Assembly (NCBI GenBank): GCA_022821085.1
Contig: JAJEEG010000006.1
Coordinates: 268,405-332,404 of the forward strand
Direction of reading: 5' to 3'
Length of the DNA: 64,000 nucleotides
Origin: Candidatus Latescibacterota bacterium
Lineage (GTDB): Bacteria; JAAXHH01
Below the pieces are notes generated by a model that worked only from the letters and a program-made list of their open reading frames with translations, ran no database searches and was not told where the DNA came from. This document shows positions 4,855-51,268 of the stretch, in pieces. Position numbers and translations under genes: made by a program. Numbering within the stretch: position 1 is the stretch's first letter; each line of letters begins with the position of its first letter.

Positions 4855-5580
4855 GTGCCATCCATGAAGAAAGTCCTGCTGCTCGGCGCGTCCGGGCTCA
4901 TCGCGCCGCACATCACCCCCGCGCTCGAGAAGGACTACGACCTGCGGCTGGCCGACATCAAGGACCATCCGGACGGGAGGCCCGTCCTCAACGTGGATGT
5001 GCGTGACTACGGCCAGGTCCGCGAGGCCATGGAGGGCGTGGACGCGGTCATGAACTTCACGGTCCTGCGCCACGACGACACGCTGAGCTTCCAGGTCAAT
5101 ACCATCGGGGCCTGGAACGTTATGAAAGCCGCGGCCGACGCCGGGATCAGGAAGGTAATCCACACCGGTCCGGCCCAGACCCTCCTGGCCTACGTGCACG
5201 ACACGGACATCCCCGTCGACGCGCCCGACGCGCCGTCCACCGACTACTACTTCATCACCAAGCACCTGAGCAACGAGATCGTCCGGAGCTTTGCCCGCCG
5301 CCACGAGATCCACACGGTCTGCTACCTGTTCCAGGGCCTGGCGCCCCGGCCGACCGAGCATACCGGAAAGAACTCGACACGAGGTTTTCTCATTATCCAC
5401 GACGATCTCGCCGTGGCCTGCCGCCAGGGCCTCGAACTTCCCTCGGTGCCCGGCTTCTACCAGGCCTTCAACCTGCATAGTCATTATGGACCGGGTCAAT
5501 ACAGCCTGGAGAAGGCCGAGCGCATCCTGAGGTACGCGCCGCAGGAGGCGTGGTGGCAGTGGCAGCGGCGGCCGGGTTAG
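4855..5580 (+). CDS. NAD(P)-binding uronate-dehydrogenase-like protein (paralog of 63101..63823)
   Basis: LLLGASGLIAP...LRLAD and YxxxK (YYFITKH) motifs. About 55% identical to the ORF at 63101. Confidence 0.7.
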   Translation: MPSMKKVLLLGASGLIAPHITPALEKDYDLRLADIKDHPDGRPVLNVDVRDYGQVREAMEGVDAVMNFTVLRHDDTLSFQVNTIGAWNVMKAAADAGIRKVIHTGPAQTLLAYVHDTDIPVDAPDAPSTDYYFITKHLSNEIVRSFARRHEIHTVCYLFQGLAPRPTEHTGKNSTRGFLIIHDDLAVACRQGLELPSVPGFYQAFNLHSHYGPGQYSLEKAERILRYAPQEAWWQWQRRPG

Positions 5581-5588
5581 CGCGTAGG

Positions 5589-5792
5589 TCAGTCTACCCG
5601 GAGAGAAGGTCTGTTGGTGGGTCTTGGATGCTTCCAGCCACGCCAGATCTTGTCCCGATAACCGCTGGTGAGCTTGATATCGATCTCGATGCCCATGGTC
5701 AGGATGTCTTCGTCATGCAATGTTTCCAGAATCGTGTTTTTTATGTGTTCAACGACCTCGGGGGTCAGAACCCGGCCTTTCTTCGTCGACAT
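5589..5792 (-). CDS. hypothetical small protein (67 aa) in AT-rich islet
   Basis: ATG at 5792 is preceded by SD aagggagg at 6 nt spacing. Sits in a low-GC segment. No recognisable family. Confidence 0.45.
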   Translation of the reverse strand: MSTKKGRVLTPEVVEHIKNTILETLHDEDILTMGIEIDIKLTSGYRDKIWRGWKHPRPTNRPSLRVD

Positions 5793-5808
5793 GTATGCCT
5801 CCCTTCGA

Positions 5809-6063
5809 TTAGTCCAGTAGTAGTTTGATTGTAATGGTGATGAGCAACCCAAAATTCGCAATGATACATGTAATCAGGGTTTTTCTCCACCAGCGGGCAT
5901 CGCTTTTCATTTCCTTCAACTGTTCGGCGTTGTATTCAATGAGTTCCCGCATGCCGTCTTCCGATGTCTCAAGACCGGACAGACGGCTTTTGACGCACTG
6001 GTCCTTGAAGTACACTTCCTCCATCAGTTCTTCCGTGTCTCTTTGGGTTTTATGATTGTTCAT
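5809..6063 (-). CDS. hypothetical C-terminally membrane-anchored small protein (84 aa) in AT-rich islet
   Basis: Charged N-terminal region and hydrophobic C-terminal TM (ITCIIANFGLLITITIKLLL). Lies 16 nt upstream of 5792 on the same strand. Confidence 0.45.
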   Translation of the reverse strand: MNNHKTQRDTEELMEEVYFKDQCVKSRLSGLETSEDGMRELIEYNAEQLKEMKSDARWWRKTLITCIIANFGLLITITIKLLLD

Positions 6064-6283
6064 CGTCGGGTTGTGCTCCTATCGGTGTGTGCGTGACATC
6101 GCTATGTTTATCCATTTATACTGGTTAATTGTGTATCATGATCTGTCATATTGAATCAGTTGGAATTCCGTTAAACATTCTCGCGGACTTTTTAAAAAAG
6201 ATGCAGGAAGCATGAAATAAACTCCGATCGGTTTAGTTCAAATTTAGACCGGATTCCTACAGCCAACCAAGGAGAATCACCCC

Positions 6284-7354
6284 ATGTCCAGTAACGCCCG
6301 GACCATTCGCGTATTCGTCGGCACCTACACCCAGACCACCAGCAAGGGCATCTACGTATATGACGTCGATACCGCCACCGGCGTCATGGAATACGTCAGC
6401 CACGTGGGCGGCATCACGAACCCGTCCTTCCTGTGCCTGACGCCGGACGCCCGCTTCCTCTACGCCGTGGGCGAGACGGGCGATCCTCACGGCGGCGTTT
6501 TCGCTTATTCCGTGGACGCGTCCGGCACGCTCACGCCGCTGAACAGCCAGTCGTCCGGGGGCGCCGGGCCCTGCTCCATCGACGTGCACCGGAGCGGCAA
6601 GGCCGTGCTCGCGGCCAATTACGGCGGCGGGTCCGTTTCCTCCTTCCCCGTGAATGACGACGGATCCCTGGGCGAGGCGGCGTCGGTCATCCAGCATACC
6701 GGTTCGAGCGTCGACCAGAGCCGCCAGCAGGAGCCCCACGCCCACATGATCCGCCACGACCTGGACTACAACTTCGTCTTCTCGCCGGACCTGGGCACCG
6801 ACAAGGTGATGATCTACGCCCTCGACCCGGACACGGCCGTGCTGACGCCCCATGGGGAGGCTTCTGTACCGCCCGGGTCCGGTCCCAGGCACATCGAGTT
6901 CCATCCCAACCGCCGGTTCGCTTACGTGATCAACGAGATGGGCAACACGATCACGGCCTTCGCCTACGACGGGTCGGCCGGCACGCTCACCGCGATCGAG
7001 ACCGTGCCGACGCTGCCCGACGGCTACGACGAGGTCAGCCACACGGCGGACATCCACATCACCGACGACGGACGGTACCTCTACGGATCCAACCGGGGCC
7101 ACGACAGCCTGGCCATGTACGCGGTGGACGGGGATTCGGGCCGCCTGTCGCTGCTCGGCATTGTGCCCACGGGCGGCGAGAACCCGCGGAACTTCGGGAT
7201 CGACCCGACCAACAGCTTCGTGCTCGTCGGCAACCAGAGCTCGGACACGGTCACCTACCACCGGCTCGACCCGGACACGGGCCTGCTCCATCTCTCGGGC
7301 GTCGTGGCCGAAATCCCCATGGCGGTGTGCCTGAAGATGATCGTGTTGGACTGA
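6284..7354 (+). CDS. lactonase, 7-bladed beta-propeller (6-phosphogluconolactonase-like, PF10282)
   Basis: VFVGTYT...GIYVY N-terminus and repeated propeller blades. SD aaggagaa upstream. Confidence 0.8.
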   Translation: MSSNARTIRVFVGTYTQTTSKGIYVYDVDTATGVMEYVSHVGGITNPSFLCLTPDARFLYAVGETGDPHGGVFAYSVDASGTLTPLNSQSSGGAGPCSIDVHRSGKAVLAANYGGGSVSSFPVNDDGSLGEAASVIQHTGSSVDQSRQQEPHAHMIRHDLDYNFVFSPDLGTDKVMIYALDPDTAVLTPHGEASVPPGSGPRHIEFHPNRRFAYVINEMGNTITAFAYDGSAGTLTAIETVPTLPDGYDEVSHTADIHITDDGRYLYGSNRGHDSLAMYAVDGDSGRLSLLGIVPTGGENPRNFGIDPTNSFVLVGNQSSDTVTYHRLDPDTGLLHLSGVVAEIPMAVCLKMIVLD

Positions 7355-7363
7355 TTTCGGCCC

Positions 7364-9766
7364 ATGAGCGCGCAAGATCGAAGACCCGAATCCGGACCGC
7401 CGGACCGCACTCAACCGGAACTCGCCCGGCAGGATCCCGCCCGGCAGGACGCTGCCCGGCAGGACCGCGAATGGCGGGCGTTCGTCGAACGGTCGCGGCG
7501 CGAGCCCAAACCCTTCGAGGACCACCTGGAGGCCTTCCGGCGTATATTCGACGGACGCCGCCCGGAGGACGGGCCGCCCGCGGTCTGGGCGCCGGACGAG
7601 GAGACCGTGCGCCGGTCGAACCTATGGGCCAGCATGGCGGCGGTGGGTATGGACCGCTACGAAGATTTCCACACCTGGTCCGTCCGCGATCCTTCCGCCT
7701 TCTGGACCCACACCCTCGAGCGGCTCGGCATCGTATTCACGCGACCGCCGGACGCCATCCTCGACCTGGCCGGGGGTGTCCGCGACCCCCGGTGGCTGCC
7801 GGGCGCCCTGCTCAACATCGTCGACAGCTGCTTTACCGCCGATCCCGGCCGACCAGCAGTCGTCACGCCCGGTTCGGGCGACCCGGAGGGCCTGGACGAC
7901 CCTCACGATCCTGACGATCCTGACGACCCTCGCGATCCTGACGGCCCGGCCGGCCAGGCGCTCCGCACGACGACCTACGGGGAACTGGAAAGCCTCGTCA
8001 ACCGCGTCGCCAACGGCCTGAGCGAGCGGGGCCTTGCGCCGGACCGGGCCATCGCGCTCTACATGCCCCTGAACCGGGCATGCGTGATCGCCTATCTGGC
8101 CATCATCCGCGCGGGTTCGCGGGTCGTCTCCATCGCCGACAGCTTCCCGGCGTCAGAAGTGCGCCGCCGCATGGCCATCGCCGCCGCGAACTGCGTCGTC
8201 ACCATGGACCGGTACGTCCACGCGGGCAAGAGCATACCGCTCTACGACACGGTCGTCGAATCCGGCGCGTCCACGATCATCGTCGTGCCGTCCGGTGGCG
8301 ACGCGATCGCGCCAGGTGCTTCCCCGGCGGCATCAGACGCGCCTCAGCACCACTGCGGCATCCGCGCATCCGACATCCCCTGGTCCGACCTCCTGTCCTC
8401 CGACGATACCTTCGAATCCGTAATCGGCGACCCCTATCGCACGACCAATATCCTGTTCTCTTCGGGGACCACCGGCGAGCCGAAGGCCGTCCCCTGGACC
8501 CACCTGACCCCCATCAAGAGCGCCATGGACGGATACTTCCACCAGGACATCCACGGCGACGACGTGACGACCTGGCCGACGAATATCGGCTGGATGATGG
8601 GGCCGTGGCTCATCTACGCCACCCTGGTCAACGGCGCGTGCATGGCCTTGTATCCCGGCGCGTCGAATACCGCCGAATACCTGCGCTTCATCCGGCGCGC
8701 CGGGGTGACGGTGCAGGGCGTCATCCCCTCGCTGGTGCGGACCTGGCGGCGCGCCGGCGTGGCCGATGAGCGGCGCACCGGCGTTTCCGATGGGCAGCAA
8801 GGCGGCGTGGCCGATGGAATCGACTGGCCGTCCATCCGCGTGTTCAGCTCCACGGGCGAGCCCGCCAGCCGGACCGACTACCTGTGGCTCATGAGCCGGG
8901 CCGGATACCGCGCGCCCGTGATCGAGTACCTGGGCGGCACCGAAATCGGGGGCGGCCACCTGGCCTGCACGGTCCTTCAGCCCTGCTCGCCCGCGGCATT
9001 CACCACGGCGAATCTGGGTGTGGATTTCGTTATACTGGAAAAGACCGGCAAGGAGGCCGGGGAGACCGGCTGGGAGGCCGGGGAGACCGGAGAGGCCGGG
9101 GAGGCGGGGAAGGCGGGCAAGGAGGCCGGGGAGGGCGAAACCGGCGAGCTCTTCCTCATGCCGCCCGCCCTGGGCATGTCGCAGCGGCTGCTCAACGGAG
9201 ACCACGACGAAGTCTACTACAATGGCTGTCCGGCAGGTCCCCGGGGCGAGGTCCTGCGCCGGCACGGCGACCACACCAAGCGGCTTTATCACGGCTACTA
9301 CCGGGCCCAGGGACGCGCCGACGACGGGATGAACCTGGGCGGCATCCTGGTCAGCCCCCTGGAACTGGAACGGATCATCGACGGGCATCCCGCCGTCTAT
9401 GAGAGTGCGGCCGTGGCGGTGCAGCCCGAGGGGGAAGGGGCGGAAAGACTGGTGGTCTTCGTCGTCGCCGAAGCGGGCGCCGCCGCTGACGCCGATCTCG
9501 CAGCCGATGCGCTAGATTCGGAACTCGACACCGGCCCGGGTGGCGCCGCCGGGCCCTGGTCGGCCGGTCCACCCGTTGACGCTGAGCCCGACGCCCGAAC
9601 GCTCACGCCCGATCTCGACCCCGAAGCACTAAAATCACAACTCCAGGCCATGGTCTCTGCCGGACTCAACCCGCTGTTCAAAATATACCGGGTCGTTATC
9701 GTGGAGGAACTTCCTCACACCGCGTCGGGAAAGCTGATCCGCCGTGTCCTCAGAGACATGACGTAA
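7364..9766 (+). CDS. acetoacetyl-CoA synthetase-like AMP-forming ligase with N-terminal extension and low-complexity insertions
   Basis: AACS-type N-terminus (VWAPDEE...RYEDFHTWSVRDPSAFW). Acyl-adenylate motif FSSGTTGEPK and C-terminal catalytic Lys (SGKLIRR). Insertions: an acidic DP repeat and a GEAG/KEAG repeat. Confidence 0.85.
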   Translation: MSAQDRRPESGPPDRTQPELARQDPARQDAARQDREWRAFVERSRREPKPFEDHLEAFRRIFDGRRPEDGPPAVWAPDEETVRRSNLWASMAAVGMDRYEDFHTWSVRDPSAFWTHTLERLGIVFTRPPDAILDLAGGVRDPRWLPGALLNIVDSCFTADPGRPAVVTPGSGDPEGLDDPHDPDDPDDPRDPDGPAGQALRTTTYGELESLVNRVANGLSERGLAPDRAIALYMPLNRACVIAYLAIIRAGSRVVSIADSFPASEVRRRMAIAAANCVVTMDRYVHAGKSIPLYDTVVESGASTIIVVPSGGDAIAPGASPAASDAPQHHCGIRASDIPWSDLLSSDDTFESVIGDPYRTTNILFSSGTTGEPKAVPWTHLTPIKSAMDGYFHQDIHGDDVTTWPTNIGWMMGPWLIYATLVNGACMALYPGASNTAEYLRFIRRAGVTVQGVIPSLVRTWRRAGVADERRTGVSDGQQGGVADGIDWPSIRVFSSTGEPASRTDYLWLMSRAGYRAPVIEYLGGTEIGGGHLACTVLQPCSPAAFTTANLGVDFVILEKTGKEAGETGWEAGETGEAGEAGKAGKEAGEGETGELFLMPPALGMSQRLLNGDHDEVYYNGCPAGPRGEVLRRHGDHTKRLYHGYYRAQGRADDGMNLGGILVSPLELERIIDGHPAVYESAAVAVQPEGEGAERLVVFVVAEAGAAADADLAADALDSELDTGPGGAAGPWSAGPPVDAEPDARTLTPDLDPEALKSQLQAMVSAGLNPLFKIYRVVIVEELPHTASGKLIRRVLRDMT

Positions 9767-9810: not shown

Positions 9811-10713
9811 TTATTGTTTCGATCTGTCCACGTGCCTGAGGTAGGTTTCGCTGGCAAAGAACAGGAAATCGTACGATCGCACCCGGTCGCGCCAATTGGT
9901 AGCGAGGTGGCGATATGTAAACACCCCCCTGGATTTCGATGGCAGCGTATCCTCTCCGTCATGTGTCACAACGGGCACAATCACATAATCCAGTTGCTCG
10001 CCGTTCTCGTCTTTCCAGACAACCGTGACAATGACGTCGCTGATTTCCGTACCCGTGTTATTCAATATGGTCCCGTTGCCAGTCACATATATACCGCCTG
10101 GGTCCGTGGAGAAGATTGCGCTTTCCTCCAGCAAGATTAAAGGTACCGGTGATAATTCGTCCCTGTCGTCTTCAGGGCGCAGGTCCCTGACTCTGACAAA
10201 GGCTGTATTGATGAAGAAACCCCAGTCAACATTGGCAATACGATCGTGAACAAGCGTTACATCATGTCGCCCGTTATAAGTGAGCGTTTCTCCTGGTTCG
10301 ACTTCTTTCTCATCTTCCGGTTCGATTATCGTAAAGAATACCCTACCAATCCTGGCGCCCTGGGTGTCATTTAAGAATATCCCCAACTGAATGAAACTAT
10401 CCTTCAGCGTATGGTCGGTTATGTTCTTAATGACGAGATGCATCACGGCATGTTTCTGCCCGTTCTCCGCGGTCTCATAATCGAGAATAAACTCTGATAA
10501 CTCGAAGACATATTCGAACGACAACAGACCGGGGATACCCGGCGGGCCTTGAGGCCCGGCCTCCCCCTGTGGCCCCGGTGGACCGGCAGGTCCCTGAGGG
10601 CCTTCGGTTCCGACCCCCGGAATTCCCTGCGGACCTTGAGGACCTGCCGGGCCTGCCGGGCCCTCACATGCCGAGAAAACAAAGAGCACTGAAAAGAGAA
10701 CCAGGTATCGCAT
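9811..10713 (-). CDS. lipoprotein with N-terminal collagen-like G-X-Y stalk and unknown C-terminal domain
   Basis: Signal peptide plus lipobox (FSAC). About 40 residues of collagen-like repeat follow immediately ([17 protein letters not shown]...GPPGIPG). Confidence 0.7.
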
Positions 10714-17131: not shown

Positions 17132-17521
17132 TCAGTCCTGCCTCTGCTTCAAAGCCCTGACTTCTCCTTCAACGCGGCCAAGCCTTTTGTTCAAGTCATG
17201 TATATCCGCCCTGACAACCTTGAATTCCTCCTGCATTTCGGTCCTGAGCGACTGCATTTCATCCCTGACGGCCTTGAATTCCTCCTGCATTTCAGCCCTG
17301 ACGGCCTTGAATTCCTCCTGCATTTCAGCCCTGAACGACCGCATTTCAGTCCTGAACGACCTGAATTCCTCCTGCATTTCGGTGCGCAGTTCACCGGTGG
17401 ATTGACCCATAAAGGTGATGACCGCAATGACAAGAATACCGACGGCAACCAGCACCTGGACAAATGCGATCAGTTTCTGGTACATTTCGTTCCCCGCTTT
17501 CGTTTTGCGTTCATGATTCAT
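17132..17521 (-). CDS. small N-terminal-TM protein with 11-residue repeats and C-terminal DLNKRLGRVEG motif (paralog family)
   Basis: 129 aa. TM helix (LIAFVQVLVAVGILVIAVITF). Repeats of the form EMQEEFKAVRA encoded by 33-bp DNA tandem repeats. Confidence 0.65.
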   Translation of the reverse strand: MNHERKTKAGNEMYQKLIAFVQVLVAVGILVIAVITFMGQSTGELRTEMQEEFRSFRTEMRSFRAEMQEEFKAVRAEMQEEFKAVRDEMQSLRTEMQEEFKVVRADIHDLNKRLGRVEGEVRALKQRQD

Positions 17522-19730: not shown

Positions 19731-19946
19731 TTACTCCCGCCCCTGCGTCAATGCCCTGACTTCCCCCTCCACGCGTCCAAGCCTTTTGTTCATGTCCTGC
19801 ATTTCGATGCGCAACTCACTGGTGGATTGCCCCATCCAGGTGATGACGGCGATGACGAGCATACCGATGGCAACCAGCGACTGGACAAATACGATCAGTT
19901 TCTGATACATTTTATTCCCTGCTTTCGTTTCGCGTACATGATCCAT
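19731..19946 (-). CDS. short paralog of the N-terminal-TM / RLGRVEG small protein family
   Basis: 71 aa. Same N-terminus (KAGNKMYQKLIVFVQSLVAIGMLVIAVITWMGQST) and DMNKRLGRVEGEVRAL tail. No internal repeats. Confidence 0.55.
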   Translation of the reverse strand: MDHVRETKAGNKMYQKLIVFVQSLVAIGMLVIAVITWMGQSTSELRIEMQDMNKRLGRVEGEVRALTQGRE

Positions 19947-21765: not shown

Positions 21766-21990
21766 CTACTCGAGCAACGACCCGATCAGCGGGATGACGA
21801 CGCACGCCAGCACGACGCCAAGCATCCATTTCATCAGTTTAATGTCGCTCTGCATCAGTTCGATGTCATTCTGCATGGAGGACAGTTTCCGCTCGAAGTC
21901 CGCGATTTCTTCGGCGGCTTCGCTGGCGGCTGCTTCAGGAGTACCAGCGGCTACGAGTGCGTCATACGTCTTGGAAAGCATGACAGGCAT
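21766..21990 (-). CDS. hypothetical tail-anchored (C-terminal TM) small protein
   Basis: 74 aa. Acidic/Ala-rich helix and C-terminal TM (WMLGVVLACVVIPLIGSLL). SD aaggatgg upstream. Forms a tandem pair with 21466..21753. Confidence 0.45.
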   Translation of the reverse strand: MPVMLSKTYDALVAAGTPEAAASEAAEEIADFERKLSSMQNDIELMQSDIKLMKWMLGVVLACVVIPLIGSLLE

Positions 21991-27787: not shown

Positions 27788-28711
27788 GTGCTACGCCACC
27801 TCGCCAGGCTGTTACTCTTTCTTGTATTTCTAGGCTGTGAGGGACCGACGGGTCCGGAGGGTCCGGCCGGACCGGCGGGGCAGGCCGGCGCCGCCGGTCC
27901 GCAGGGTATCCAGGGTCCGGCGGGACCGCAGGGCGAACCCGGGGAGACGCTGGACTGGTCGGACGTAATCGAGACCGAGAATCTGGGGGACGCGGTCTAC
28001 GCGATCGGGGTGCAGATCCAGGGGAAGAACTACGTGCTGGGTTCGGGTTTCGTCGCACACTTCACAAATGCCGTCTGGACCAATGCCCGCGTCGTTCAGG
28101 CCGTCCTCATTTCGACCACGTTTATCGACCACCTCAACCCGCGGGCCTTTGCCGTCAAGTCGGGCACGGAGATTGGCGGCGCCGACACGTACTGGCTGGA
28201 GAACTACTGGGTTCATCCCGACTACGACGGCACAGCCGGCTCGCCCGACGCGGCCCTGCTCATCATCGACGCGAACCTGACGGACCTGCCGTTCTTCCTG
28301 CCCAGGGACCAGGCCCAGGGCCTGCGCGCGGGACAGCCCATCGGTACGATCGGGTTTCCGGAGGAAGAAACGGGCGAGTCCGTCACGGTCCCCATCGCCA
28401 CGTTCAATGGCGGCACGATCGGCGCGCTGAGGCCCTTCGAAGACGCGGTCCCCACGCCGGCGAACAGCCGGATCATCCAGCATGACCTGGACAATTCCGG
28501 CCGAACGAGCGGCAGTCTCATTTTTGATCACTCGGGATACATCGTCGGGATGAATTTCGCCGGGATCTTCCGGGTCGCCTACGACGCCCGGACCGGGGAG
28601 CCCACGCGCGTTCCGTCGGGAAACCCCGGCCTCGCCGTCCGCGTGGACGAGCTCTGGCGCCTCTACGACCTGGCAAGGGGGAGTGGGCGCCAGGTCGTGC
28701 TACTTCCCTAG
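27788..28711 (+). CDS. lipoprotein with collagen-like stalk and trypsin-like (S1/Trypsin_2) domain, possibly non-canonical
   Basis: Lipobox LGCEG followed by about 35 residues of G-X-Y repeats. Then GSGFV...TNARVV (Arg where the catalytic His is expected), DAALLIID (Asp box) and GRTSGSLIF (Ser box). Confidence 0.65.
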   Translation: MLRHLARLLLFLVFLGCEGPTGPEGPAGPAGQAGAAGPQGIQGPAGPQGEPGETLDWSDVIETENLGDAVYAIGVQIQGKNYVLGSGFVAHFTNAVWTNARVVQAVLISTTFIDHLNPRAFAVKSGTEIGGADTYWLENYWVHPDYDGTAGSPDAALLIIDANLTDLPFFLPRDQAQGLRAGQPIGTIGFPEEETGESVTVPIATFNGGTIGALRPFEDAVPTPANSRIIQHDLDNSGRTSGSLIFDHSGYIVGMNFAGIFRVAYDARTGEPTRVPSGNPGLAVRVDELWRLYDLARGSGRQVVLLP

Positions 28712-31640: not shown

Positions 31641-32084
31641 ATGAGCAACGACCACAGGGAGGAACTGTGCGACCGGTTGGTAGCCGCGACAGCCGGTCTG
31701 TATCGTCTCGTATATCTGGGCCTTCGGAATGACCGAAGAGATATGCGGGAGACAGAGATGGTTAACCAGTATAAAACCCTGATATTGTTGGCCGACCACG
31801 GACCTGCGAGCGTGAGCCGGATTGCCGATATCAACGAATGCAATGATAGTTCCATAAACAAAGTTCTGGATAGGCTCGAACAAAAAAACATGATCGAGAA
31901 GGAGAGATCTTCGCATGACCGCAGACAAGTCATCTGTGAACTGGCTCCCGAGGGACGGAAGGTGGTGGAGAGGATCGATCATGTCGTCAGGTATCTTGTT
32001 CTGCCGACCACCGAGACCTGGAGCCTGGAGCAACTCGAAGCTTTCGTAGAATCGTTGGAGTCTATGCATCCCGGCCGAGCGTAG
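31641..32084 (+). CDS. MarR family transcriptional regulator
   Basis: 147 aa. Winged-helix region (LADHGPASVSRIADI...VLDRLEQKNMIEKERSSHDRRQVICELAPEG). SD gggaaagg upstream. Confidence 0.8.
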   Translation: MSNDHREELCDRLVAATAGLYRLVYLGLRNDRRDMRETEMVNQYKTLILLADHGPASVSRIADINECNDSSINKVLDRLEQKNMIEKERSSHDRRQVICELAPEGRKVVERIDHVVRYLVLPTTETWSLEQLEAFVESLESMHPGRA

Positions 32085-36937: not shown

Positions 36938-37177
36938 ATGACCGCAATGTCCCGCGAGAACTGGGCCTTTGGCGCGCAGATCGTATCGGCCATCGGCATT
37001 CTCACAATCGCAGTCGTCACCTTCATCAATCAATCCAACAAGGAATTCCGGGATGAGATTAGGACCGAATTGGCCGGGTTGCGGACCGAACTCACCTCGA
37101 TTCGTTCCGAAATCCACGACATGAATACACGACTCGGTCGCGTCGAAGGCTACCTGCGCGTATCTGTAAACGAATAA
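36938..37177 (+). CDS. small N-terminal-TM protein with HDMNTRLGRVEG motif (paralog family)
   Basis: 79 aa. TM (IVSAIGILTIAVVTF). Helical repeats (EFRDEIRTELAGLRTELTSIRSEI). Confidence 0.65.
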   Translation: MTAMSRENWAFGAQIVSAIGILTIAVVTFINQSNKEFRDEIRTELAGLRTELTSIRSEIHDMNTRLGRVEGYLRVSVNE

Positions 37178-38485: not shown

Positions 38486-38737
38486 ATGACCGGAATGTCC
38501 CGCGAAAACTGGACCTTTGGCGCGCAGATCGTGTCGGCCATAGGCATCCTCGTAATCGCAGTCGTCACTTTCATCAATTCATCCAACAAGGAATTCCGGG
38601 ATGAGGTTCGGGCCGAGTTGACCGGATTGCGGACGGAAATGCAATCCGAATTCGCCTCCATACGTTCAGAGATGCACGATATGAACACGCGCCTCGGTCG
38701 CGTCGAAGGATACCTGCGTGTGTCCGTAAACGAATAG
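38486..38737 (+). CDS. small N-terminal-TM protein with HDMNTRLGRVEG motif (paralog family)
   Basis: 83 aa, about 85% identical to 36938..37177. Confidence 0.65.
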   Translation: MTGMSRENWTFGAQIVSAIGILVIAVVTFINSSNKEFRDEVRAELTGLRTEMQSEFASIRSEMHDMNTRLGRVEGYLRVSVNE

Positions 38738-38825: not shown

Positions 38826-39089
38826 ATGAGCGAACACAGCAAGAGAGATTGGTCATGGTCTCCGGTTATTACCATGGCCGGAATGCATATCATGATGACG
38901 GGTATCATCGTTACGATAATGCTCTTCTTAAATGGTGATCTTAGTAACAGGATGCTATCGGTAGAAGAGAAATTGAGAGACTTGATCGAGGTTGTATCGG
39001 GCATGCAGACCGAAATCGGTGCAATTAAACAGGAAGTGGATGTAATTAAACAGGAAGTGGATGAAATTAAACGGGAAGTGTCCAAATAG
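38826..39089 (+). CDS. small N-terminal-TM protein with heptad/11-mer repeats (divergent member of the family)
   Basis: 87 aa. TM (MTGIIVTIMLFL). C-terminal repeats IKQEVDVIKQEVDEIKREV. Confidence 0.5.
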   Translation: MSEHSKRDWSWSPVITMAGMHIMMTGIIVTIMLFLNGDLSNRMLSVEEKLRDLIEVVSGMQTEIGAIKQEVDVIKQEVDEIKREVSK

Positions 39090-39114
39090 AAATCAGTCAG
39101 GGAGAAATCGTTCC

Positions 39115-39519
39115 ATGGAAATCGCTCAACTGATCGTATCCCCGGCCATCTTGTTGGGAGCGTTCATTTTCTTCTGGAAAGAATCCAAGGCGGGTCGCAT
39201 GGAACTCGAGACCCGGCTGGTACAGCGCATGGATCGCATGGAGGACAGGCTGGAAGCGCGTTTTGTCGAGTCGGAAGCGCGCTTTGTCGCGCTGGAGGAC
39301 AAGATGGATAGACGCTTTATCGCGACTGATGCGCGCATTGTTGCGCTGGAAAACAAGATGGATAAACGCTTTGTCTCGTTGGAGGACAAGATGGATAAGC
39401 GCTTTGTCGCTCTGGAGGACAAGATGAACGAACGCATCGTCTCACTGGAGGACAAGATGGACGTTCGGGTTGGCCGACTGGAAGGGGTGCTGATTACTAC
39501 GCAGCAGAAGGCGTCTTGA
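39115..39519 (+). CDS. small N-terminal-TM protein with 11-residue repeats (ALEDKMDKRFV x6) and VGRLEGV tail
   Basis: ATG at 39115 is preceded by agggag. TM (IVSPAILLGAFIFFW). Repeats encoded by 33-bp DNA periodicity. Confidence 0.6.
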   Translation: MEIAQLIVSPAILLGAFIFFWKESKAGRMELETRLVQRMDRMEDRLEARFVESEARFVALEDKMDRRFIATDARIVALENKMDKRFVSLEDKMDKRFVALEDKMNERIVSLEDKMDVRVGRLEGVLITTQQKAS

Positions 39520-50938: not shown

Positions 50939-51268
50939 ATGACGGAATTCATGGTGGTTACCCAGGTGATCTGCGCGGCGGGAGTCTTGTTGCTCGGCAT
51001 AGTGACCTTAACGGGACGGATCACGAAGTCTCTGCGCGAGGAGATGCGCGCGGACCGGGAGACCATCCGCGAAGAGATGAGACAAGACCGTGAGAATGTC
51101 TTTGGTGAGATCAAATCACTTCGTGAGGAGATGCGTGCGGACCGGGAAGTCATCTTCGGTGAGATCAAATCGCTTCGTAGGGAGATGCACGACATGAACG
51201 GCCGGCTGGGCCGAGTAGAAGGTCATATGAGAATCTCTGGATCGAACAGTTCAAAGGAGTTGCAATGA
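50939..51268 (+). CDS. small N-terminal-TM protein with 11-residue repeats and MHDMNGRLGRVEG motif (paralog family)
   Basis: 109 aa. TM (VVTQVICAAGVLLLGIVTL). Repeats LREEMRADRE...FGEIKSLREEMRADRE. Confidence 0.65.
   Translation: MTEFMVVTQVICAAGVLLLGIVTLTGRITKSLREEMRADRETIREEMRQDRENVFGEIKSLREEMRADREVIFGEIKSLRREMHDMNGRLGRVEGHMRISGSNSSKELQ

What the first reader, a model, noticed from the sequence alone, without database searches (positions are those of the whole stretch)
5589..6283. AT-rich two-gene islet inserted in the sugar-acid gene cluster
GC content falls visibly across about 5.6-6.28 kb. The islet holds two tandem minus-strand small genes. One is an 84-aa tail-anchored membrane protein. 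The other is a 67-aa soluble protein with a strong SD, and the two are separated by 16 nt. Both islet genes run opposite to the flanking plus-strand catabolic genes. Compositional deviation plus a small tail-anchored and soluble gene pair is typical of horizontally acquired toxin/antitoxin or abortive-infection cassettes. I cannot assign either protein to a family.
Basis: partly seen in the sequence, partly recalled or inferred. Interest (0 to 1): 0.5.

Follow-up and report, generated by a model that had tools for sequence, protein, structure and literature searches.

The report
Swappable small membrane-protein gene pair
Two real, co-inherited small genes (a tail-anchored membrane protein faintly resembling phage XhlA, plus an unclassifiable soluble partner) sit in an AT-rich slot inside a sugar-catabolism operon of an uncultured Gemmatimonadota bacterium; related genomes have this slot empty, decayed or filled by a different pair, so it is an accessory cassette of untested function rather than a recent foreign import.

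Summary
Minus-strand genes 5809-6063 (84 aa, one C-terminal membrane helix) and 5589-5792 (67 aa, soluble; GGGAGG ribosome site; 16-nt gap) occupy the lowest-GC 695 bp of the window (0.46 against 0.62). Both are under purifying selection (dN/dS 0.13-0.38).

The pair lies at the same site in at least 8 related Gemmatimonadota genomes, and its low GC3 (0.5-0.7 against 0.83-0.92 in the flanks) persists to synonymous saturation. So it is not a recent import. Still, the slot is variable:
- An outgroup operon has only about 105 bp there.
- One in-group genome carries a different, non-homologous pair (soluble plus tail-anchored).
- Another has a 112-nt deletion in the 84-aa gene.

Both families are restricted to this lineage, in three paralog groups that probably share a genome. 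They are absent from phage, viral-contig and plasmid collections and match no toxin-antitoxin or defence model.

The 84-aa protein resembles phage XhlA/SPP1 gp24.1 only weakly (Pfam 29.9 bits, below the cut-off; hhalign E 2e-4). No holin or endolysin is nearby. The 67-aa protein has no assignable family or fold.

Best guess (0.4): a partner-controlled, holin-like or toxin-antitoxin-like membrane module. Toxicity and binding are untested.

The parts
5809..6063 (-). Gene for the 84-aa tail-anchored membrane protein ('p84'). It has an acidic cytoplasmic helix of about 60 residues and a single C-terminal membrane helix (residues 63-81, nucleotides 5821-5877). It is weakly XhlA-like.
   Evidence: ORF. 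Hydropathy. The AlphaFold2 model is one long helix, pLDDT 79. There are 19 ortholog clusters of 60-95% identity. dN/dS is 0.13-0.34. Pfam XhlA PF10779 scores E 6.4e-7, 29.9 bits, below the 34.7-bit cut-off. PHROG 689 'holin' scores E 3e-4. hhalign against phage XhlA proteins gives E 2.2e-4, probability 45%.
5793..5808 (-). 16-nt intercistronic spacer carrying the ribosome-binding site GGGAGG (5798-5803) for the second gene.
   Evidence: Sequence. GAAGGGAG and the 13-16-nt spacing are conserved in all orthologs and in the two paralog groups.
5589..5792 (-). Gene for the 67-aa soluble partner ('p67'). It belongs to an orphan family with the invariant motif G-x-E-x(4)-L-x(2)-G-x(2)-D-x(2)-W-x(2)-W-x(2)-P and a variable, basic, proline-rich tail.
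   Evidence: ORF. There are 17 ortholog clusters and 43 clusters in the wider profile search, all 35-75 aa and named only from Gemmatimonadota. Alignment A6 is. dN/dS is 0.14-0.38. No family was found in Pfam, NCBIfam, PHROGs, PADLOC or PDB. The AlphaFold2 model has pLDDT 60 with two helices and a hairpin. No fold match was found.
6064..6283 (.). AT-rich (GC 0.41) divergent intergenic region between the p84 start and the lactonase start. It presumably holds the promoters of both.
   Evidence: Composition. It is poorly conserved among orthologs apart from short blocks. About 150 nt next to the lactonase gene are retained in L028 although its cassette differs. One sigma-70-like site on the + strand lies at 6093-6122. 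No Rfam match.
5581..5588 (.). 8-nt gap between the convergent stop codons of the epimerase-family gene (+) and p67 (-). There is no room for a terminator, so the two transcription units must overlap or collide.
   Evidence: Read directly from the sequence.
4855..5580 (+). Left flank: the second of two NAD-dependent epimerase/dehydratase-family genes of the catabolic operon (context, not part of the cassette).
   Evidence: The Pfam Epimerase hit is on orthologs that are 84-91% identical. This gene directly abuts the lactonase gene in L031.
6284..7354 (+). Right flank: lactonase (PF10282) gene of the same operon (context).

Best explanation
The islet is a lineage-restricted accessory two-gene operon of an uncultured Gemmatimonadota bacterium. 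It is not recently imported DNA.

Shown:
- One mRNA unit encodes p84 and then, 16 nt later behind its own strong ribosome site, p67.
- p84 is a small inner-membrane protein held by a single C-terminal helix. Its conserved acidic helix of about 60 residues should face the cytoplasm, because RWWRK precedes the membrane helix and only 3 residues follow it.
- p67 is a small cytoplasmic protein.
- The two families always occur together and co-diverge. They exist as three paralog groups that probably share a genome.
- Both are under purifying selection but evolve 3-5 times faster than their neighbours.
- The pair occupies a slot that is empty, decayed or refilled by an analogous but unrelated pair in related genomes.

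Inferred:
- p67 binds the cytoplasmic helix of p84 and controls it.
- p84 acts like the phage XhlA/gp24.1 class of single-helix holin-type proteins. When freed from p67 it oligomerises and perturbs the membrane.
- That would make the pair a toxin-antitoxin-like or holin-antiholin-like module. It could serve defence or simply its own retention.

The AT-richness is a stable property of this class of small genes in this genome, not a mark of recent transfer.
For: Gene structure and conservation:
- Sequence, ORFs, alignments and the conserved spacer with its ribosome site.
- dN/dS below 0.4.
- Single C-terminal membrane helix and a long-helix model.

Obligate pairing and co-divergence:
- Distant homologs P0038 (L012) and P0044 (L013) each have a homologous partner 13 nt downstream, in different genomic contexts.
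- Pairwise distances of p84 and p67 correlate with r = 0.96 over all pairs and 0.76 among orthologs.

XhlA-like signal:
- Pfam E 6.4e-7 and 1.9e-5; PHROG holin E 3e-4.
- The hhalign alignment to Bacillus-phage XhlA proteins is gapless over 53 columns, E 2.2e-4.
- By eye, p84 and SPP1 gp24.1 (83 aa) show the same 31-residue spacing between an R-[LI]-S-x-L-E motif and a tryptophan just before the membrane helix. Their lengths are almost equal (84 and 83 aa).
- XhlA-type proteins act in membrane disruption together with a partner (PMC6316719; PMC5589764).

Accessory behaviour:
- L031 lacks the pair, L028 has a different AT-rich cassette (soluble plus tail-anchored), and L030 has a 112-nt deletion in p84 with p67 intact.
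- In L017/L018 one paralogous module lies next to a PIN-domain gene pair, apparently VapBC-like. That pair is absent from the corresponding place in L012.
Against: - No toxin, antitoxin, abortive-infection or defence model matches either protein or its paralogs.
- The XhlA score is below Pfam's cut-off. A control shows that another membrane-helix plus coiled-coil protein of this same window reaches E 7.9e-7 against an unrelated Pfam family. The similarity could therefore be architectural.
- Phage XhlA homologs are reported as harmless alone and need a two-helix holin (PMC6316719). No holin or endolysin is nearby.
- The pair is stably inherited at one site in at least 8 genomes. It has no copies on phages, viral contigs or plasmids. 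This is less patchy than typical toxin-antitoxin or defence cassettes.
- The genome holds many other AT-rich small coiled-coil membrane genes that lack partners. A non-toxic lineage-specific role is therefore equally natural.
- Binding and toxicity are untested.
Confidence: 0.4

Rival explanations
1. The pair is a benign lineage-specific membrane complex. p84 would be a tail-anchored scaffold, comparable in architecture to E. coli ElaB/YqjD, that tethers p67 (or something p67 binds) to the inner membrane. The role would be structural, stress-related or regulatory, with no toxicity. Low GC would simply be the normal composition of this genome's fast-evolving small membrane-protein genes.
For: - The window alone holds at least 8 other AT-rich small single-helix coiled-coil genes with GC3 of 0.52-0.72, most without a partner.
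- The pair is inherited at one site in at least 8 genomes under purifying selection.
- Low GC3 is stationary across deep divergence.
- No defence or toxin-antitoxin signature was found.
- The XhlA hit may be architectural.
Against: - The slot is dispensable and replaceable: it is empty in L031, carries a different cassette in L028, and holds a deleted p84 in L030.
- There is no Pfam hit to the ElaB/DUF883 family.
- The pair evolves 3-5 times faster in protein sequence than its neighbours.
- Replacement by an analogous but non-homologous soluble plus tail-anchored pair is more typical of competing accessory cassettes.
Confidence: 0.35
2. The pair is a domesticated remnant of a prophage lysis cassette. 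An XhlA-type holin accessory gene would have been left behind after loss of the holin and endolysin, with p67 as a phage-derived regulator such as a cytoplasmic antiholin.
For: - XhlA and PHROG-holin similarity.
- Cytoplasmic antiholins that bind a holin's cytoplasmic domain exist; phage T4 RIII is an example (my own knowledge, not checked here).
Against: - No phage genes lie in the neighbourhood of any ortholog or paralog.
- No relatives were found in 50,697 phage records or in IMG/VR.
- Three paralogous copies, probably in one genome, each lie in a different non-phage context.
- An exhaustive profile search finds only 11 proteins at E up to 1e-3, and the convincing hits all fall in the three paralog groups.
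Confidence: 0.1
3. The islet is recently acquired foreign DNA from an AT-rich donor that has not yet drifted to the host composition.
For: - It is the lowest-GC stretch of the window, with deviant tetranucleotide usage.
- It is absent from the outgroup operon L031.
Against: - The site and orientation are the same in at least 8 genomes.
- GC3 is unchanged (0.51-0.68) in orthologs whose synonymous sites are saturated.
- The families occur nowhere outside this lineage among 1.84 and 5.8 billion proteins searched.
- There are no mobility genes or flanking repeats.
Confidence: 0.05
4. The ORFs are chance reading frames in an AT-rich regulatory spacer.
For: The genes are small and no family can be assigned to p67.
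Against: Both proteins are conserved with mostly synonymous change, dN/dS is 0.13-0.38, start codons and the ribosome site are conserved, and diverged paralogs keep the same architecture.
Confidence: 0.01

Closest known systems
XhlA / SPP1 gp24.1 family (Pfam PF10779, misnamed 'Haemolysin XhlA'): single-helix holin-type proteins of Bacillus and Enterococcus phage lysis cassettes
   Same: - Almost the same length (84 against 83 aa).
- An N-terminal cytoplasmic coiled-coil helix and one C-terminal membrane helix.
- A gapless 53-column profile alignment. By eye it includes a shared R-[LI]-S-x-L-E motif and a tryptophan just before the membrane helix at identical spacing.
- XhlA is the only Pfam hit with E below 0.01.
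- Like XhlA, it comes with an obligate small partner gene.
   Different: - The score is below Pfam's gathering threshold, and hhalign probability is only 45%.
- The host is Gram-negative-type Gemmatimonadota, not Firmicutes.
- The context is not a phage or prophage and has no endolysin.
- The partner is a soluble cytoplasmic protein, not the two-helix holin XhlB/gp26.
- The cytoplasmic domain (RDTEELMEEVYFKD...) is conserved in a way not shared with phage XhlA.
Chromosomal toxin-antitoxin modules with small membrane toxins (for example GhoT/GhoS, type V), and holin-antiholin pairs (for example T4 holin T with the cytoplasmic antiholin RIII). Both comparisons come from my own knowledge.
   Same: - Two small adjacent co-transcribed genes, one a membrane protein and one a small cytoplasmic protein.
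- An accessory, replaceable locus.
- In L030 the membrane gene is destroyed while the partner stays intact. This is the tolerated order of decay if the membrane protein is the harmful part.
   Different: - No sequence or profile match to any known toxin, antitoxin or antiholin.
- p84 has a long conserved cytoplasmic domain, unlike the very short hydrophobic toxins.
- The pair is not patchy across distant taxa.
- Toxicity and neutralisation are untested.
ElaB/YqjD/YgaM (DUF883) tail-anchored inner-membrane proteins of E. coli (my own knowledge)
   Same: A small protein with a cytoplasmic helical domain anchored by a single C-terminal membrane helix.
   Different: There is no Pfam DUF883 hit. 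Those proteins have no dedicated partner gene and are core genes rather than islet genes.
Replacement-type flexible genomic islets (a fixed chromosomal slot holding alternative cassettes in related strains; a general concept from my own knowledge)
   Same: The slot between the same two conserved operon genes is empty, filled by p84-p67, or filled by a different AT-rich two-gene cassette. About 150 nt of the lactonase upstream region are retained.
   Different: The slot is unusually small (about 0.7-0.9 kb, two genes). It lies inside an operon on the opposite strand and has no integrase, tRNA or flanking repeats.

Membership tests
XhlA family (PF10779) | A protein of about 70-110 aa with an N-terminal coiled-coil helix and a single C-terminal transmembrane helix | tested here: met
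   Hydropathy peak at residues 63-81 of 84. The AlphaFold2 model is one continuous helix over residues 3-83. SPP1 gp24.1 has 83 aa and the same layout (PMC6316719).
XhlA family (PF10779) | Score at or above the Pfam gathering threshold (34.7 bits) | tested here: not met
   29.9 bits (E 6.4e-7) for the window protein and 25.1 bits for the L009 ortholog. A few orthologs carry a precomputed PF10779 hit, marked weak.
XhlA family (PF10779) | Profile-profile similarity to bona fide phage XhlA proteins beyond what membrane-helix plus coiled-coil composition gives | tested here: inconclusive
   hhalign of A5 against A4 gives probability 45%, E 2.2e-4, over 53 gapless columns. As a control, another membrane-helix plus coiled-coil protein of the window hits the unrelated Lectin_N family at E 7.9e-7.
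XhlA family (PF10779) | Encoded in a phage or prophage lysis cassette next to a two-helix holin and an endolysin | tested here: not met
   The neighbours are catabolic genes in all orthologs. The partner has no membrane helix. No phage or viral-contig relatives were found.
Toxin-antitoxin module | Two small adjacent co-oriented genes forming one operon and always found together | tested here: met
   A 13-16-nt spacer with a conserved ribosome site is present in all orthologs and paralogs.
Toxin-antitoxin module | A recognisable toxin or antitoxin domain | tested here: not met
   No hit in Pfam, NCBIfam, PADLOC or PDB sequence searches. No fold match for p67, though that model has low confidence.
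Toxin-antitoxin module | Accessory, patchy distribution with gain, loss or replacement between related genomes | tested here: inconclusive
   One case each of absence, replacement and deletion (L031, L028, L030), but stable inheritance in at least 8 genomes and no copies on mobile elements.
Toxin-antitoxin module | One product is toxic and the other neutralises it | not testable with these tools
   This needs expression experiments.
Known anti-phage defence systems (PADLOC-DB v2) | Match to a model of a known or candidate defence protein | tested here: not met
   No hit for p84, p67, their paralogs or the L028 cassette at E up to 1-10.
Horizontally acquired genomic island | Composition significantly different from the host | tested here: met
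   GC z = -2.75, the lowest 0.06% of windows; tetranucleotide z = 2.8; GC3 of 0.59 and 0.66 against 0.83-0.91.
Horizontally acquired genomic island | Absent from the same site in a related genome | tested here: met
   L031 has the same operon with flanking proteins 69-79% identical (NHL/SGL-like to lactonase) and about 105 bp between the epimerase-family and lactonase genes.
Horizontally acquired genomic island | Relatives in other taxa or on mobile elements; mobility genes or flanking repeats | tested here: not met
   The families are confined to one lineage. No flanking direct repeats in the window. No phage or plasmid copies.
Horizontally acquired genomic island | Composition drifting towards the host (recent arrival) | tested here: not met
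   GC3 is 0.51-0.68 in all orthologs and paralogs, although synonymous divergence of the pair exceeds 1 between subclades.
ElaB/YqjD (DUF883) tail-anchored proteins | Match to the DUF883 profile | tested here: not met
   No such hit in the Pfam scan at E up to 10.

The most novel reading that the evidence does not exclude
Gemmatimonadota of this lineage may carry a previously undescribed class of miniature, interchangeable cassettes. Each would pair a tail-anchored membrane effector with a small cytoplasmic controller and would occupy a fixed opposite-strand slot inside an operon. The cassettes would be kept AT-rich and would compete for those slots. They would act as a new toxin-antitoxin-like or abortive-infection-like system whose membrane component is a non-phage descendant, or a convergent analogue, of the XhlA holin class. 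Because the cassette converges on the operon with only 8 nt between stop codons, operon read-through could also control it by antisense transcription.
Probability: 0.25. Interest if true: 0.65.

Novelty: new variant of a known kind. Interest (0 to 1): 0.42.

Why it matters
If the pair is a partner-controlled membrane-perturbing module, three things follow:
- It would extend the XhlA type of single-helix holin protein beyond Firmicute phages into the chromosome of a Gram-negative-type phylum.
- It would give that protein a new kind of soluble partner.
- It would define a new orphan protein family (p67).

The fixed slot with alternative two-gene fillings is a compact natural example of cassette replacement inside an operon.

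More generally, the case shows that in this genome low GC marks a class of small, fast-evolving membrane-protein genes rather than recent transfer. This is a caution for composition-based island calling in high-GC uncultured lineages.

If instead the pair is a benign membrane scaffold, the finding is of local interest only.

Tried and rejected
- **Family scans.** Pfam, NCBIfam, PHROGs and PADLOC scans of both proteins, their paralogs and the L028 cassette gave only the weak XhlA and PHROG-holin hits for p84.
- **PDB profile searches.** Both families were searched; nothing scored below E 0.09.
- **Protein databases.** An exhaustive HMMER search with the p84 profile over 1.84 billion representatives gave 11 hits; the full-length, convincing ones fall in the three paralog groups. 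A profile search with p67 gave 43 clusters, all of the same family.
- **Mobile-element collections.** Phage GenBank, IMG/VR and PLSDB searches found no relatives.
- **RNA and signals.** Rfam found nothing in 5000-7000. Promoter and terminator consensus scans gave no convincing site for the minus-strand operon.
- **Flanking repeats.** No direct repeats flank the islet in the window.
- **L028 cassette.** I tested whether it is a diverged p84-p67 pair. hhalign rejected this.
- **L011 frameshift.** It is a 1-nt deletion next to an A6 run, in sequence otherwise identical to L010. It is probably a long-read error and was not used as evidence.
- **Literature.** A search found no link between XhlA-type proteins and toxin-antitoxin systems.
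Full report
**1. The observation**

- A minus-strand ORF at 5809-6063 encodes 84 aa.
- A second minus-strand ORF at 5589-5792 encodes 67 aa from its ATG.
- The 16-nt spacer between them (5793-5808) carries GGGAGG 5 nt before that ATG.
- The flanking genes run on the plus strand: an epimerase-family gene at 4855-5580 and a lactonase gene at 6284-7354.

The 84-aa protein ('p84') has one hydrophobic stretch at residues 63-81, followed by only three residues. The 67-aa protein ('p67') has none.

The composition is clearly atypical.
- GC of 5589-6283 is 0.462 against a window mean of 0.620. That is z = -2.75, the lowest 0.06% of same-size windows, and in fact the minimum of the 64 kb.
- Tetranucleotide usage is in the top 1.1% of deviation.
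- Third-codon-position GC is 0.59 and 0.66, against 0.83-0.91 in the neighbours.
- The 220-bp divergent spacer 6064-6283 has GC 0.41.

The islet is extreme but not alone. Fifteen segments below GC 0.52 make up about 18% of the window.

**2. The genes are real**

- p67 has 17 clusters of homologs at 72-100% identity. All but one are exactly 67 aa.
- p84 has 19 clusters at 60-95% identity.
- A DNA alignment of seven orthologous loci shows conserved reading frames, start codons and ribosome site, with change concentrated at third positions. The upstream spacer is poorly conserved.
- Pairwise dN/dS is 0.13-0.38 for both genes.
- The 90-aa TTG-start alternative for the second gene is not supported by conservation.

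**3. Organism and context**

The only source names attached to homologs are Gemmatimonadetes/Gemmatimonadota metagenome-assembled genomes, apart from one 64-aa cluster member labelled candidate division Zixibacteria.

Pfam labels on orthologs that are 81-94% identical describe the neighbourhood as a catabolic cluster. In order it contains:
- an aldo-keto reductase and an L-rhamnose mutarotase;
- a PhyH-family gene and an NHL/SGL-like gene;
- an Amidohydro_2 gene and two NAD-epimerase-family genes;
- then the pair, followed by the lactonase and an acetyl-CoA-synthetase-like gene.

**4. Recent import or not**

The pair sits at the same position and orientation in every related long contig examined: L001-L011 and L019-L021. 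Flanking proteins are 81-96% identical to those of the window, and the pair is 68-82% identical.

The low GC3 of the pair (0.51-0.68) is the same in all orthologs, while flanks stay at 0.83-0.92. This holds even between subclades where the synonymous divergence of the pair exceeds 1. The composition is therefore stationary, not that of a newcomer drifting toward the host.

The families are tiny and lineage-bound.
- An exhaustive profile search over 1.84 billion representative proteins found 11 hits for p84. The full-length, convincing ones fall into three groups; the rest are short fragments plus one weak repeat-protein match.
- A profile search for p67 found 43 clusters, again in the same groups.
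- Nothing related exists in 50,697 phage records, IMG/VR or 72,556 plasmids.
- No repeats flank the islet.

Recent acquisition from a foreign AT-rich donor is thus not supported.

**5. An accessory, replaceable slot**

A scan of metagenome contigs with the lactonase recovered four informative loci.
- **L031.** Its flanking proteins are 69-79% identical (NHL/SGL-like to lactonase), and it is the outgroup in a neighbour-joining tree of three flanking proteins. It has the same operon, but only about 105 bp separate the epimerase-family and lactonase genes. There is no pair.
- **L028.** Its lactonase is 96% identical and it nests inside the clade that carries the pair. It has a 910-bp AT-rich insert with two different minus-strand genes: an 89-aa soluble protein and, overlapping by 4 nt, a 75-aa protein with a C-terminal membrane helix. 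These are not detectably related to p67 or p84 and match no family. About 150 nt upstream of the lactonase gene are retained. The 3' end of the epimerase-family gene is triplicated as a 38-nt tandem repeat.
- **L030.** It has a clean 112-nt deletion inside p84 while p67 is intact.
- **L011.** An apparent frameshift of p67 is a single-base deletion beside an A6 run, in sequence otherwise identical to L010. I discount it as a probable long-read error.

The site therefore shows four states: gain (or loss in the outgroup), vertical inheritance, replacement, and decay.

**6. Paralogs**

The distant p84 homologs P0038 and P0044 are each followed 13 nt later by a p67 homolog of 59-75 aa. Each pair lies in a different genomic context and is again AT-rich (0.40-0.50 against about 0.61).

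Members of all three groups are recorded on a contig of exactly 2,870,129 bp, the length of the longest contig that carries the window's own p67. I infer, but did not verify on DNA, that one genome carries three paralogous modules.

In L017/L018 one paralog lies next to a PIN-domain gene pair, apparently VapBC-like. That pair is missing from the corresponding place in L012.

Distances between p84 proteins and between p67 proteins co-vary, with r = 0.96 overall and 0.76 among orthologs. Any linked pair would show this.

**7. What the proteins are**

p84:
- It models as one long helix.
- Its most conserved part is the cytoplasmic segment R-D-T-E-E-L-M-E-E-V-Y-F-K-D ... K-x-R-L-x-G-L-E-T-S, not the membrane helix.
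- Its only notable family hit is Pfam XhlA, E 6.4e-7 at 29.9 bits, below the 34.7-bit cut-off. A PHROG 'holin' family scores E 3e-4.

To test the XhlA link I took SPP1 gp24.1, a documented XhlA homolog of 83 aa with a C-terminal membrane helix (PMC6316719), and five other Bacillus-phage XhlA proteins.
- Profile-profile comparison gives a gapless 53-column alignment with E 2.2e-4 and probability 45%.
- By eye, the R-[LI]-S-x-L-E motif and the tryptophan before the membrane helix are 31 residues apart in both proteins.
- A control tempers this. Another membrane-helix plus coiled-coil protein of the same window scores E 7.9e-7 against the unrelated Lectin_N family.

I put true homology at roughly even odds.

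Phage XhlA-type proteins cooperate with a two-helix holin, and each alone appears harmless (PMC6316719; PMC5589764). No such holin or endolysin is near any copy.

p67:
- It has no family in any library.
- It has no PDB sequence relative.
- Its model has low confidence (pLDDT 60; two helices and a hairpin).
- It has no fold match.
- Its invariant core across paralogs is G-x-E-x(4)-L-x(2)-G-x(2)-D-x(2)-W-x(2)-W-x(2)-P, followed by a variable tail.

**8. Mechanism**

Shown:
- a bicistronic unit encoding a tail-anchored membrane protein and an obligate cytoplasmic partner;
- purifying selection with fast evolution;
- residence in a dispensable, replaceable slot.

Inferred:
- p67 binds and restrains the cytoplasmic helix of p84;
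- unrestrained p84 oligomerises and damages the membrane, as a holin-type protein does.

This is a toxin-antitoxin-like or holin-antiholin-like logic. The decay pattern in L030 (membrane gene lost, partner kept) and the replacement by an analogous pair in L028 fit it. I give this 0.4.

The main rival (0.35) is a harmless lineage-specific membrane scaffold. It is supported by the abundance of other AT-rich small coiled-coil membrane genes in this genome and by the stable inheritance. A prophage remnant (0.1) and a recent foreign import (0.05) are poorly supported.

One structural consequence can be read directly from the sequence. The stop codons of the epimerase-family gene and p67 converge with only 8 nt between them. 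Operon read-through would therefore be antisense to the pair. Whether this is used for control is unknown.

**9. Verdict**

- The closest known relative is the XhlA class, but two defining features (threshold score and lysis-cassette context) are not met.
- I file the pair as a new variant of a known kind, with a wholly uncharacterised partner family.
- Interest is moderate.

Noticed in passing
window 17132-17521(-), 19731-19946(-), 36938-37177(+), 38486-38737(+), 50939-51268(+); relatives L001 1570-1914 and 8874-9263, L004 8827-9201, L009 9210-9566: A multi-copy family of small proteins, each with an N-terminal membrane helix, a variable number of 'E-M-R-x-x-F-x-x-[IV]-R' coiled-coil repeats and a conserved C-terminal R-L-G-R-V-E-G motif. 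Each gene lies in a low-GC segment, usually on the strand opposite to its neighbours. Presence varies between related genomes: for example, the copy between the NHL-like and amidohydrolase genes is present in L001, L004, L009 and L010 but absent from the window and L006.
   Followed up: partly
L028 2578-2691: Three tandem 38-nt copies of the 3' end (including the stop codon) of the epimerase-family gene lie directly at the left edge of the alternative cassette. This may be a scar of the replacement event. No equivalent repeat exists in the window.
   Followed up: partly
L028 2808-3301 (minus strand): An alternative AT-rich cassette occupies the same slot: an 89-aa soluble protein followed, with a 4-nt overlap, by a 75-aa tail-anchored membrane protein (GC3 of 0.44 and 0.36). 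No family or defence hit was found, and it is not homologous to p67 or p84.
   Followed up: partly
window 21766-21990 (-): Another small (74-aa) tail-anchored protein with a coiled-coil segment and a C-terminal membrane helix. It has no Pfam hit and no obvious partner gene.
   Followed up: partly
window 38826-39089 (+) and 39061-39519 (+): Two further AT-rich small genes for proteins with an N-terminal membrane helix and coiled-coil repeats (87 aa with GC 0.42, and 152 aa). This region is the most tetranucleotide-deviant part of the window.
   Followed up: no
window 9811-10713 (-) and 27788-28711 (+): Two predicted secreted or lipoprotein-like proteins begin with collagen-like G-P-x triplet repeats. 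The first has low GC3 (0.58). In relatives it is replaced by small coiled-coil membrane genes downstream of the acyl-CoA-synthetase-like gene.
   Followed up: no
window 7364-9766 (+): The acetyl-CoA-synthetase-like gene carries low-complexity insertions (D-P-x-D-P repeats and G-E-[AT]-G-[EK]-A-G runs). It is only about 65% identical to orthologs whose neighbours are 81-96% identical, mostly because of insertions and deletions.
   Followed up: no
L017 1169-1803 (-) and 2700-2885 (+): Next to one paralogous module lies a PIN-domain gene with a 78-aa AbrB-like partner, apparently a VapBC-type pair, which is absent from the corresponding place in L012. An extra 61-aa coiled-coil gene follows the module.
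   Followed up: no
window 31641-32084 (+): A MarR-family regulator gene (Pfam E 1.8e-13) lies in a low-GC segment.
   Followed up: no
window 5581-5588: Only 8 nt separate the convergent stop codons of the epimerase-family gene and p67, so the two transcription units must overlap. In L031 the operon is continuous at this point.
   Followed up: no
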